DNA from: Escherichia coli | GTDB taxonomy: Bacteria; Pseudomonadota; Gammaproteobacteria; Enterobacterales; Enterobacteriaceae | NCBI RefSeq assembly: GCF_013122565.1 | Contig: NZ_CP053258.1 | DNA length: 64,000 nt | Direction: 5' to 3' (one strand) | Shown here: positions 16,701-19,700 of the stretch, one piece after another | Numbering within the stretch: the first letter of the stretch is position 1 | Layout: every line of letters starts with the position of its first letter | Program-made: the position numbers

Positions 16701-19700
16701 GCATCGTAAATGTTGCCCAGAAGAGGGCAAGAACCGTATCCGTTTTCATAATCACCTGCGTCAGGATCACAGCGCATTGCATCTGCTGCCGTTTTTGCAA
16801 CACCGGCGGCGTAAACTCCGGCGGAAATCAAACAAAGCGACGATATCAGCATTACCTGATTAAATGTACGTAAAACAAGAGACATGATTACTTTTATTCC
16901 ATCCTGTTTATATAAAAGAAACGGGCTCGGTTAAGAGCCCTGTAAAAGATTTAAAAGTCAATGGTATTAAGACCGACATTCTTTTTGATGGAGGGGTCGT
17001 AAATAACAACGGTAAGATGGTCTTTGTCGGAAGAACGGACAAACTTAGCGGTGGCCTCACCACTGCATGTTGCATGACGGTTATAATCCATCATTTTACC
17101 TTTGCTGGTAGCAAGATTGACAACGATGATATAAGGATCATAACAGGCCGAACCTCCCGGACTGCTCAGCAAGGCATATTTGCCATCATCAGAGACACCA
17201 ATGAGGCTGCATATCCCGTCTTTTACATCCTCACTTCCGCACATCAGCTCACTTCCATCTTTCACACCAATTATAGTACGGGGTAATTTAACCTCTGTGG
17301 CATTAACTGATGCACTCAACAACAAACCTGAAACCATTAATGGAAATATGAATGCTTTCATATATTCATCCTGTTTATTTTTTTGAATGAAAATGATTGT
17401 GTGGTGGAAAGGCTGCCGCCCTGTATCTAAACGCCAGACAGGGCCTGCACAGACCCTGTGGCATAATCAGAGCTCGGCCCGGCCACGTAAAACCTTGCGT
17501 GCCAGCCGCTTCTCCGTTTCCGTTGCGCTGCTGAACATACCGTTGTCGCTGATTATCCTTCTCAGCTCTGCGCTACTCCTGCTCTCCAGCCGGTCATGAA
17601 TCGCTCTTACCTCCTGGGCACTGTACAGAGCGTCTTTTGCAACTTCTTTAGCCAGTTTTCCTGCGGTATCCCAGAATCCCATCTTATTTCCCCTTTACAG
17701 GTAACCGTTATCTTTGCCCCACTCACACCCGCAGTCCCTGCACATCCAGCCATCGGACCAAGGAATAGTGTCGTAAGAGCCACAGTCCGGGCAGCGTTTG
17801 CCGGAAGTCGGGTTACCGGGGATGATACGTCTGATTTTCATATGTTATCCTTCTGTTGCGGGTTGATGTGGTTCAGGGACGAAGCCGGAAAGCACTTCGC
17901 CAATGAACCGGAAATGAGGTAATGCCTGTAAAAAATCCGGACGGGACAAGATGTCACGCACGGTGGTGTCGGGGGTAAAAATGTCGGGATGAAGTGTGAC
18001 GCCCCGGATATCAGCCAGTGGCAATGCGATGATGCGTGTCTGACGTGCCCCTGTCAGATACCAACTACCGGCATGAAGAACCAGGCGGTAGGGTGAGATA
18101 TCCGTATGGTTGCATCCGTTGCCGCGCAGTGTCACTTTCCGGCATTCCTGGACAGCATTTACCAGCCGGATAAAGACCTCACTGTCGGTGACGGGCTGTG
18201 CAGAATCCCCCTGCCAGATAAGGCAGGGGGATTCACCCGCCCCCCCCAAAAGTGAGCTGACCAGATGTCCGTCAAGTCCCGGAAACAGGGACTTAACGCC
18301 CGACTTACGGGCAAAAGTCATCACCGCCAGCTCTCGCTGACGGCTGCCGGACAGCAGACGGTACTGGCCCTGTCGATACTCCAGGTCTAGGTACATCAGT
18401 CGTTCACGAAAGTCCCGACGCAGGGTGCGAACTGACACATCAAACTCAGCTGCCAGTTTGCGTATATCCAGCGTTTCACCTGCCACCAGACGACTTATAA
18501 TTATCGACAGTCTGACGGCAAGCCGGTCATGGCGACGCTCAGCCTGAGTCATAAGGCTTCGTTCTCCGGTAAGCTAATTCAATGAAAAGATGAGGGTAAT
18601 ATTAACGAGGACGAGAGGCAGGGTATGGACATAGAAAGACGATTTTTAAAAATGCTCAGTGTCAGGAATGGCGGGGGCCACGGAGGGACGTAGCTCTTTT
18701 CTCTCTGAGTATAGGTCTGCAAACGGACAGGATGCGTCCGCACGTTAGCAAAATACCTTCTCAGTATCAGAAGAAAATCCAGTCCCAGATGGTCCGCGCA
18801 ACTGACACCACTACATCACGCACGGTACGTAGCACCACTTTCAGTGTTGTCGGCAGGAACGACGATAATTCTACCCGATCCATGACCTGCCCCACCGCTT
18901 CACCAAAGCCATGACGGGCCTGCGACCGGACCTGTTCGGTACAGAGCCTCCCATGTAACTGCGTCGCCACCGGACTGGTGGCCCTGTCCGGCAGACAACG
19001 CATCATGGTTGACACCATCTCTTCAATGCCCCAGTCGAACAACGCTGACACCACGCAGACTGGATGACGGGGAGTGAACATCGTGGTAATGACGGCCTGC
19101 TTCGCCTTCAGGTTAGTCTGCTGCTGTGGCGAGGGGGTAGCGGTACGGATATCCCATTCGTGGCAGGGTTCGATTTTGTCGGCCTGGTTCAGCACAAACA
19201 GCACCTGGTGCTGGTAAGGTTGCATCACCCCATGCCAGAACTGCTCGTCCACTGACAGCGCCCGGTCGTCGGCTTTAATGACCCACAGCACCAGGTCCAG
19301 CCCCGGCAGCATACGCCGGTACAGGGCACGGTATTCATGGTCCTGTTGCCCGTTTTCGCCCACGCCCGGCAAATCAACAATCACCAGACTGTGACGCCCG
19401 CTGCGCAGCCGGAAGCGCAGCACCTCACGAGTACAGGCGTTCACATCACTGACGGGGGAGACTTCCCCCCGGAATAGTTCATTACAGAGCGAGGATTTGC
19501 CGACCCCAGTCTTGCCCATGATGCCTATCATCGGCTCGTAGTGGGTGAGGTTCTGAATACGTTCAAAAATTAGCTGGCGAAGCGTATCGGGAAGCGCCGA
19601 CAGCGGTTGTTCAAGGGCCTTAAGGCCGTGAGGTTTAGTCATAAAGAGGTCTCTGCGTGTAAAACATAAAACCCGCACTCCGGTCAGTGAGGCGGGGATT

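What the first reader, a model, noticed from the sequence alone, without database searches (positions are those of the whole stretch)
17695..17841. Unannotated 48-codon zinc-ribbon ORF missed by the length cutoff
Seen in sequence: hand translation of the minus strand gives MKIRRIIPGNPTSGKRCPDCGSYDTIPWSDGWMCRDCGCEWGKDNGYL with two CxxC pairs; it lies between the regulator gene and the 71-aa ORF, co-directional with both.
Basis: seen in the sequence. Interest (0 to 1): 0.3.

Follow-up and report, generated by a model that had tools for sequence, protein, structure and literature searches.

The report
Conserved small zinc-ribbon gene in island
The 48-codon ORF is a real, strongly conserved gene for a tiny four-cysteine zinc-ribbon protein that sits just after a WYL-type regulator in an E. 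coli genomic island, but public annotation already lists it as a hypothetical protein and its function is still unknown.

Summary
"Unannotated" is not correct: RefSeq/PGAP annotates this ORF at these coordinates (WP_001383016.1, hypothetical protein) and calls it in every allele I fetched.

It is a genuine gene. Across 10 E. coli alleles pN/pS is about 0.08, the lowest in the cassette (neighbours 0.19-0.26). In the Cys-rich core, 19 of 22 variable sites are third codon positions. C17, C20, C34 and C37 are invariant in 32 family members; C39 varies.

Homologs occur in Salmonella, on Klebsiella plasmids and in Morganella, Providencia and Proteus. They almost always lie directly after a YfjR-type HTH-WYL regulator, often with an ATGA stop/start overlap.

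The ribbon survives where the regulator has been deleted, and YfjR-type regulators exist without it. It also tracks a secreted ~135-aa domain encoded downstream. I therefore read it as the lead cargo gene of the regulated operon, not an obligate subunit of the regulator.

It passes no Pfam, NCBIfam, PHROG or PADLOC threshold, and its predicted fold is a generic zinc ribbon. Verdict: a new, uncharacterised member of a known kind, of modest interest.

The parts
17695..17841 (-). 48-codon ORF for a C4 zinc-ribbon protein. Cys ligand codons: C17 at 17791-17793, C20 at 17782-17784, C34 at 17740-17742, C37 at 17731-17733.
   Evidence: Exact translation. pN/pS about 0.08-0.09, variable sites 6/6/28 by codon position. 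Four Cys invariant in 32 homologs. AF2 core pLDDT 83-87 with a beta-hairpin. RefSeq WP_001383016.1.
17848..17852 (-). Shine-Dalgarno AAGGA inside the last codons of the regulator gene, 6 nt upstream of the ATG.
   Evidence: Read in the sequence. Conserved as (A/G)AAGGATAAC in all alleles, including L011 where the regulator is deleted.
17845..18552 (-). YfjR-type HTH + WYL-domain regulator (235 aa). Its stop codon lies 3 nt before the ribbon's ATG.
   Evidence: Pfam WYL 1.3e-05 and HTH_DeoR 4.8e-05. PADLOC WYL 3.6e-18. 49% identical to K-12 YfjR. Adjacent to the ribbon in nearly all loci.
17467..17682 (-). 71-aa helical ORF of unknown function, 12 nt downstream of the ribbon, with its own GGGGA Shine-Dalgarno. 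It accompanies the ribbon in Enterobacteriaceae only.
   Evidence: No family hit. PGAP sometimes names it 'transposase'.
16951..17361 (-). 136-aa cargo ORF with a hydrophobic N-terminus that I read as a signal peptide (not tested), followed by a terminator-like hairpin at 16923-16940.
   Evidence: phrog_8968 3.9e-37. Terminator scan.
15947..16885 (-). 312-aa cargo ORF with a hydrophobic N-terminus (likely signal peptide, by eye) and a weak Ivy-like N-terminal half. Its C-terminal ~135-aa domain co-occurs with the ribbon across Enterobacterales.
18767..19642 (-). YfjP/YeeP-type GTPase upstream of the cassette, an island backbone gene. A 214-nt intergenic region (18553-18766) is the likely promoter/operator region of the regulator operon.
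   Evidence: Pfam MMR_HSR1 6.5e-16. Synteny. The promoter scan found no strong sigma-70 consensus on the minus strand there, so the promoter is inferred.

Best explanation
Shown: this is a genuine protein-coding gene for a 48-aa single-domain C4 zinc-ribbon protein. It is the first gene after a YfjR-type HTH-WYL regulator, 3 nt from that gene's stop codon here and overlapping it (ATGA) in Morganellaceae. It lies in the variable cargo slot of a CP4-57/CP4-44-type island inserted beside a tRNA-Ser gene. It belongs to an uncharacterised family confined mainly to islands and large plasmids of Enterobacterales, and it is the most constrained gene in its cassette. Inferred: it is transcribed with the regulator from the regulator's own promoter and translated by coupling. 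It folds around one zinc ion into a two-knuckle ribbon that presents three near-invariant Trp residues (W28, W32, W41) and acidic residues, forming a protein- or RNA-binding surface rather than a basic DNA-binding one. It then acts in trans as a small cytoplasmic factor of the cargo module. Its role is most likely tied to the downstream envelope or secreted cargo, in particular the secreted ~135-aa domain that always travels with it. One possibility is that it promotes cargo expression, the way phage Mu Com activates translation of mom. On this reading the regulator controls the ribbon rather than needing it.
For: Gene reality: exact ORF with SD. pN/pS 0.08 against 0.19-0.26 for neighbours at equal pS of about 0.36. 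Core variable sites 3/0/19 by codon position. Independent purifying selection in the Morganellaceae clade, 0.25 overall and 0.18 in the core. Four Cys invariant in 32 sequences. Zinc-ribbon model with core pLDDT 83-87, and the best fold matches are zinc ribbons. Operon: no terminator-like site between the regulator and orf136; gaps of 3 nt and 12 nt here; ATGA overlap in 12 of 16 Morganellaceae loci. Independence from the regulator: the ribbon is intact with its SD where the regulator is absent (L011, L013, L046). YfjR-type regulators head ribbon-less cassettes in K-12, p8025, pRWS291 and pMTY18781. The ribbon is 94-98% identical where the regulator is only 62%. An AF2 fusion model gave no confident complex. 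No natural fusions were found. Link to cargo: the orf312 C-terminal domain lies downstream of the ribbon in E. coli, Salmonella, a Klebsiella plasmid, the P0012 and P0004 clades and 15 of 16 Morganellaceae loci, and is absent from all four ribbon-less cassettes. The core is acidic (pI 4.5).
Against: There is no direct evidence of translation, zinc binding or any activity. The cargo link rests on co-occurrence alone. L025 has the ribbon without the domain, and the O111 lineage keeps the domain after IS1203 removed the ribbon. More distant family members in metagenomes have neither the WYL regulator nor this cargo. The Com-like mechanism is an analogy from my own knowledge; no conserved RNA target was sought or found. 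The near-universal position directly after the regulator, with start/stop overlap, is what one would also expect for a regulator partner.
Confidence: 0.45

Rival explanations
1. The ribbon is an accessory subunit of the YfjR-type WYL regulator, a co-repressor, anti-repressor or signal adaptor. It is made in fixed ratio by translational coupling and tunes the regulator's binding to its own operator.
For: It lies immediately downstream of the regulator in about 25 of 28 Enterobacterales loci, across clades where the regulator is only about 40% identical and the surrounding genes are rearranged. ATGA overlap. One distant member follows a small HTH_11 protein. K-12 YfjR is reported to target its own operon (PMC8249747).
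Against: The ribbon persists intact without the regulator in L011, L013 and L046. The regulator family works without it in other cassettes. There is no co-variation: 94-98% against 62% identity. In the fusion AF2 model the ribbon's pLDDT fell to 28/60/68/68/53 from 48/71/83/87/62 alone, with pTM 0.45, though this test is weak. No natural fusions were found.
Confidence: 0.27
2. The ribbon is a stand-alone effector that binds a highly conserved host or invader protein. Examples of this kind are an anti-restriction or anti-defence factor like Lar, or an enzyme inhibitor like YacG. It would be unrelated to the neighbouring envelope cargo.
For: Extreme sequence constraint compared with every island-encoded neighbour. 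It sits in an island with antirestriction (ArdB/KlcA-type), RadC/JAB and DUF932 genes. The wider family occurs in other mobile-element contexts. Several longer relatives of the ribbon motif score weakly against Lar_restr_allev.
Against: The ribbon itself has no hit to Lar, YacG, Ogr/Delta or TraR/DksA models at E<=1, and only a sub-threshold Cas12f zinc-ribbon hit in PADLOC. It is absent from phage genomes. This model does not explain the co-occurrence with the secreted domain.
Confidence: 0.18
3. The ribbon is the toxin of a toxin-antitoxin-like pair, with the HTH-WYL protein acting as the DNA-binding antitoxin.
For: The gene order and 4-nt overlap resemble type II TA operons, and the downstream gene is more conserved than the upstream one.
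Against: Three lineages keep an intact ribbon gene with its SD after losing the regulator, which a toxin would not tolerate. There is no PADLOC or TA family hit.
Confidence: 0.03
4. It is not a functional gene: either a chance ORF or a decaying remnant of a transposase or TnpB zinc ribbon.
For: The best Pfam hit, though sub-threshold, is the Cas12f1-like TNB zinc ribbon (E=0.0043). PGAP labels the next ORF 'transposase' in some genomes. The antisense frame is also open.
Against: Strong purifying selection in two clades. The start, SD and length are conserved across families of bacteria. Substitutions fall on position 3 of this frame, which is position 1 of the antisense frame, and the antisense ORF's ends are not conserved. 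No transposase domain is nearby.
Confidence: 0.02

Closest known systems
N-terminal zinc ribbon of YjdM/PhnA (Pfam PF08274; PDB 2akl, PA0128)
   Same: Same C4 zinc-ribbon fold and a similar motif, CPxC(x)S...DG..C..C..EW. It is the top Foldseek PDB match (E=0.056, 32% identity over 28 columns, rmsd 1.9).
   Different: The sequence score is far below the family threshold (10.3 bits against 30.8). YjdM has an additional C-terminal domain, is a chromosomal housekeeping-type gene, and its own function is unknown.
Phage Mu Com, a zinc-finger translational activator of mom (comparison from my own knowledge)
   Same: A very small C4 zinc protein encoded directly upstream of, and coupled to, the genes it may serve, on a mobile element.
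   Different: No detectable sequence similarity, no RNA target identified here, and the Cys spacing differs. This is an analogy for how it might work, not a membership claim.
Lar/RalR restriction-alleviation protein (Pfam PF14354)
   Same: A small prophage or island-encoded zinc-ribbon-type protein near anti-restriction functions. Some longer ribbon-motif relatives hit this model weakly.
   Different: The 48-aa protein gives no hit at E<=1. Not a member.
TnpB/Cas12f TNB (OrfB) zinc ribbon (Pfam PF07282)
   Same: Best sub-threshold Pfam and PADLOC hits (E=0.0043 and 0.0015). CxxC...CxxC ribbon.
   Different: Below threshold (17.6 bits against 26.3), with no RuvC domain or IS context. It is an independent gene under selection.
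K-12 CP4-57 yfjR-ypjK-yfjS-yfjT cassette
   Same: Same island type, same slot and the same regulator family (49% identity) heading an operon of small or envelope proteins. YfjR is reported as a single-target regulator of its own operon (PMC8249747).
   Different: The first cargo gene there is YpjK, a hydrophobic membrane protein with no Cys motif. There is no ribbon and no orf312-type domain.
Rpb12 / L37ae / RPA12-TFIIS zinc ribbons
   Same: Generic classical zinc-ribbon fold. One source even names the protein 'ribosomal protein L37AE/L43A'.
   Different: E-values are not significant (>=0.05). The resemblance is fold class only, and that source name is a misannotation.

Membership tests
Classical C4 zinc ribbon (fold class) | Two CxxC knuckles whose four Cys are conserved | tested here: met
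   C17, C20, C34 and C37 are invariant in 32 sequences, with 13-16 residues between the knuckles. C39 is variable.
Classical C4 zinc ribbon (fold class) | Beta-hairpin ribbon fold that superposes on known zinc ribbons | tested here: inconclusive
   AF2 core pLDDT 83-87 with strands 25-28 and 31-34. Foldseek top hits are all zinc ribbons with TM about 0.5 and rmsd 1.2-1.9, but E>=0.056.
Classical C4 zinc ribbon (fold class) | Binds one Zn(II) | not testable with these tools
   Needs metal analysis of purified protein.
Pfam Zn_Ribbon_YjdM (PF08274) | Score at or above the gathering threshold of 30.8 bits | tested here: not met
   10.3 bits, E=0.75. TIGR00686 phnA 11.4 bits against 80.2.
Pfam Cas12f1-like_TNB (PF07282) | Score at or above 26.3 bits, and located at the C-terminus of a RuvC nuclease | tested here: not met
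   17.6 bits. It is a stand-alone 48-aa gene.
Lar, Ogr/Delta, TraR/DksA and YacG small zinc proteins | Any Pfam match to the family model | tested here: not met
   None of these models appears at E<=1. HMMER's filters may hide hits with E>0.1.
Type II toxin-antitoxin pair | The toxin gene is not maintained without its antitoxin | tested here: not met
   The ribbon is intact without the regulator in L011, L013 and L046.
RefSeq protein WP_001383016.1 / WP_001458941.1 (hypothetical protein, Enterobacterales) | Identical or near-identical sequence at the same locus | tested here: met
   Annotated at 17695-17841 of the collinear genome NZ_CP048605.1. The exact sequence is in the protein collection on at least 1000 contigs.
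WYL-regulator-associated ribbon family (defined here) | Core CPxC..(D/E)DII.WG.GWMCRDC..EW, encoded directly after a YfjR-type HTH-WYL gene | tested here: met

The most novel reading that the evidence does not exclude
The zinc ribbon and the secreted ~135-aa domain (the C-terminal half of orf312) form a previously undescribed two-part island module. In it, a cytoplasmic micro-protein specifically switches on, or escorts, an envelope or host-interaction cargo; some relatives of the cassette also carry IrmA-type proteins. The module would sit under a WYL-domain sensor, giving a new small-protein layer of control over island cargo.
Probability: 0.15. Interest if true: 0.5.

Novelty: new member of a known kind. 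Interest (0 to 1): 0.3.

Why it matters
The gene shows that a sub-50-codon ORF in a common class of Enterobacterales islands and large plasmids is under tighter constraint than any of its neighbours. Even so, it belongs to no curated family and has no proposed function. It gives an experimentally tractable handle on two poorly understood things. One is what YfjR-type WYL regulators control. The other is how the variable cargo slot of CP4-type islands, which elsewhere holds Ag43, YeeR and IrmA, is expressed. The practical lesson is that ORF length cutoffs hide real genes, although PGAP did not miss this one.

Tried and rejected
- **Curated families.** Pfam, NCBIfam, PHROG and PADLOC scans gave only sub-threshold generic zinc-ribbon hits. 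A PDB sequence search gave nothing significant, and Foldseek against the PDB had no hit with E<=0.001.
- **Regulator complex.** The AF2 model of regulator + (GGGGS)x5 + ribbon, with an alignment paired by locus, showed lower ribbon confidence than the ribbon alone. This neither supports nor firmly excludes a complex: the alignment has 18 rows, the model is monomeric, and I had no access to coordinates or PAE.
- **Natural fusions.** I searched for regulator-ribbon fusions because the 90% cluster of the ribbon has a 237-aa WYL protein as representative. Those proteins contain no ribbon and no fusion appeared among representatives, so this is a clustering artefact.
- **Phage origin.** There was no tblastn hit in 50,697 phage records and only 4 IMG/VR loci. 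Rejected.
- **Known RNA.** Rfam found only a meaningless snoRNA hit below threshold.
- **Antisense ORF.** The 108-aa ORF at 17596-17922 (+) is open, but its ends are not conserved and substitutions fall on its first codon positions. Rejected.
- **Distant family members.** Their contexts did not reveal a shared partner.
- **Literature.** Searches found nothing on this ORF. The IrmA papers describe flu-yeeR-irmA, not this cassette.
- **orf71.** It is not related to the 71-aa ORF next to P0016.

Full report
**1. Observation**

The reverse complement of window 17695-17841 translates to MKIRRIIPGNPTSGKRCPDCGSYDTIPWSDGWMCRDCGCEWGKDNGYL*. It has two CxxC pairs (C17/C20 and C34/C37) and a fifth Cys (C39).

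It lies on the minus strand between a 235-aa ORF (17845-18552) and a 71-aa ORF (17467-17682). An AAGGA Shine-Dalgarno sits 6 nt upstream of the ATG. The regulator's TAA is 3 nt upstream of the ATG, and the next ORF starts 12 nt after the ribbon's stop, behind its own GGGGA.

A short ATG-ORF with this Cys pattern is expected 0.07 times per shuffled window. The window has a single copy, and no known RNA family overlaps it.

**2. It is not unannotated**

The window is collinear with E. coli PapRG-06-5 (NZ_CP048605.1, 99.6% identity). There PGAP annotates exactly this ORF at 17695-17841 as WP_001383016.1, 'hypothetical protein'. PGAP calls the ORF (147-150 nt) in every other allele I fetched and on a Klebsiella plasmid.

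The exact protein is on at least 1000 contigs in the protein collection. Sources name it 'hypothetical protein', 'Prophage protein' or, wrongly, 'ribosomal protein L37AE/L43A'.

**3. It is a real gene under strong selection**

The locus is present in 68 of 5426 complete E. coli genomes, in alleles of 83-100% nucleotide identity.

- Ten distinct alleles give pooled pS 0.36 and pN 0.032, a ratio of 0.09. Variable sites by codon position are 6/6/28, and 3/0/19 in codons 13-48.
- Measured on the same allele pairs, the ribbon has the lowest pN/pS of the cassette at similar pS: 0.08, against 0.26 for the regulator, 0.25 for orf71, 0.19 for orf136 and 0.25 for the GTPase.
- Where the regulator has diverged to 62% identity (E. 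coli 2013C-4282 and Klebsiella IncF plasmids), the ribbon is still 94-98% identical.
- The antisense frame stays open, but substitutions hit its first codon position and its ends are not conserved.

**4. Family and structure**

A scan of one genome per species found homologs in Salmonella diarizonae (two copies), Morganella, Providencia and Proteus.

- These are 49-71 aa, sit behind strong AAAGGAG Shine-Dalgarno sites, and share the core CPxC(G/S)S..DII.WG.GWMCRDC..EW. That clade is also under purifying selection: 0.25 overall, 0.18 in the core.
- An exhaustive HMM search found 76 proteins at E<=1e-3. Many are 37-65-aa metagenomic proteins with CPxCGS.D.IPW.DG(Y/W).CRDCG.E(F/W).
- In a 32-sequence alignment only C17, C20, G31, C34 and C37 are invariant, and C39 varies, so this is a C4 site.
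- AF2 gives a zinc-ribbon core (pLDDT 83-87 for residues 21-40, hairpin 25-28/31-34) with disordered tails.
- The best PDB fold matches are zinc ribbons (PhnA-like PA0128, L37ae, RPA12), none significant.
- All family libraries give only sub-threshold generic zinc-ribbon hits.
- The conserved core is acidic (pI 4.5) and Trp-rich. That argues for a protein- or RNA-binding module rather than a basic DNA binder (inference).

**5. Context**

The island is inserted beside a tRNA-Ser gene next to ghrA. It carries the usual CP4-type backbone: GTPase, DUF932, antirestriction, RadC/JAB, DUF987, YeeU/CbtA and DUF4942.

The ribbon lies in the variable slot between the GTPase and DUF932. The order there is HTH-WYL regulator (49% identical to K-12 YfjR), ribbon, orf71, orf136, orf312. 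I found no terminator-like site before the one after orf136.

In about 25 of 28 Enterobacterales loci the ribbon directly follows the regulator. This holds where the regulator is only about 40% identical and the backbone genes are rearranged. In 12 of 16 Morganellaceae loci the ATG overlaps the regulator's stop codon (ATGA).

**6. Partner of the regulator, or cargo?**

Evidence against an obligate partnership:

- YfjR-type regulators head cassettes with no ribbon: K-12 and p8025 (YpjK-YfjS-YfjT), pRWS291 (lipoprotein plus membrane protein) and pMTY18781 (GTPase).
- The ribbon, with its SD and orf71, is intact where the regulator is missing (L011, L013, L046).
- The ribbon does not co-vary with the regulator.
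- A regulator-linker-ribbon AF2 model with locus-paired rows lowered the ribbon's confidence and had pTM 0.45.
- No natural fusions were found.

The ribbon does co-occur with a secreted ~135-aa domain, the C-terminal half of orf312.

- The domain is found downstream in all E. coli alleles, Salmonella L013, the Klebsiella plasmid, the P0012 and P0004 clades and 15 of 16 Morganellaceae loci.
- It is absent from the four ribbon-less cassettes.
- The exceptions are L025, the truncated L014, and the O111 lineage, where IS1203 removed regulator, ribbon and orf71.
- The genes between the ribbon and the domain vary: orf71 plus orf136 in Enterobacteriaceae, a 157-aa multi-pass membrane protein in Providencia.
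- IrmA-family proteins often follow. In E. coli, IrmA is known from the flu-yeeR-irmA unit of the same island type (PMC9431211).

**7. Interpretation**

Shown: the ORF is a translatable, strongly constrained C4 zinc-ribbon gene that is operonic with, and coupled to, a YfjR-type regulator.

Inferred (confidence about 0.45): it is the lead cargo gene of the regulated operon, and its function is tied to the downstream envelope or secreted cargo, possibly as a Com-like expression factor.

Rivals:

- Accessory subunit of the regulator (0.27).
- Independent effector against a conserved host or invader target (0.18).
- TA toxin (0.03).
- Non-functional remnant (0.02).

More distant family members sit in other mobile-element contexts without WYL regulators. 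The regulator link is therefore specific to the Enterobacterales clades.

**8. Verdict**

The claim that the ORF is unannotated is wrong for public annotation. The gene is a new, uncharacterised member of a known kind (small zinc-ribbon proteins of mobile elements), with a clear conserved synteny that had not been described. Interest is modest at 0.3, because there is no evidence of an unusual mechanism and the function remains inferred.

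Noticed in passing
window 15947-16885 (-), residues ~174-310 of the 312-aa ORF: The C-terminal ~135-aa secreted domain has no Pfam or NCBIfam family. 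It is 55-66% identical between E. coli and Morganellaceae and 90% identical on a Klebsiella plasmid. It co-occurs with the zinc-ribbon gene more faithfully than the regulator does. PGAP names some full-length forms 'Ivy family c-type lysozyme inhibitor' because of the N-terminal half.
   Followed up: partly
window 17467-17682 (-): PGAP labels the 71-aa ORF 'transposase' in several genomes and 'hypothetical protein' in others. No transposase or other domain hit supports the name, so it looks like a propagated misannotation.
   Followed up: partly
window 17845-18552 (-) compared with L001 6446-7152: The WYL regulator is intact in the window (235 aa) but is annotated as a frameshifted pseudogene in the 99.6%-identical genome PapRG-06-5. 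In that genome yeeT and the DUF5983 gene of the same island are also pseudogenes.
   Followed up: no
L060 (E. coli O111:H- 11128, NC_013364.1 332173-339589): In the O111 lineage an IS1203 copy replaces regulator, ribbon and orf71, leaving orf136 and orf312. This accounts for at least part of the gap between the 89 genomes carrying the orf312 domain and the 68 carrying the ribbon; only one O111 genome was inspected.
   Followed up: partly
protein cluster of the 48-aa sequence: The 90%-identity cluster holding the ribbon has a 237-aa WYL regulator as its representative, although those proteins contain no ribbon sequence. This is a clustering artefact, possibly bridged by a fused gene call, and no fusion was found among representatives.
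   Followed up: yes
window 17596-17922 (+): A 108-aa ORF runs antisense to the ribbon gene and stays open across the ribbon segment in 9 of 10 alleles. Its ends are not conserved and substitutions fall on its first codon positions, so it is a shadow ORF.
   Followed up: yes
window ~30747-31553 (-) (from L051 annotation): Two adjacent 'putative zinc ribbon protein' pseudogenes lie next to a YagK/YfjJ-domain gene. They gave no significant tblastn similarity to the 48-aa ribbon.
   Followed up: no
window 20168-21521 (-): An AT-rich pair of overlapping ORFs lies just beyond the GTPase: a 290-aa winged-helix protein, which looks ToxR/CadC-like to my eye (not tested), and a 162-aa protein. It appears to be a separately acquired module.
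   Followed up: no
L043/L046/L023 (relatives of the cassette): IrmA-family (PF18673) secreted proteins follow the ribbon cassette in Providencia and in two metagenomic Enterobacterales clades. This links the WYL-regulated slot to host-interaction cargo known in E. coli from the flu-yeeR-irmA unit.
   Followed up: partly
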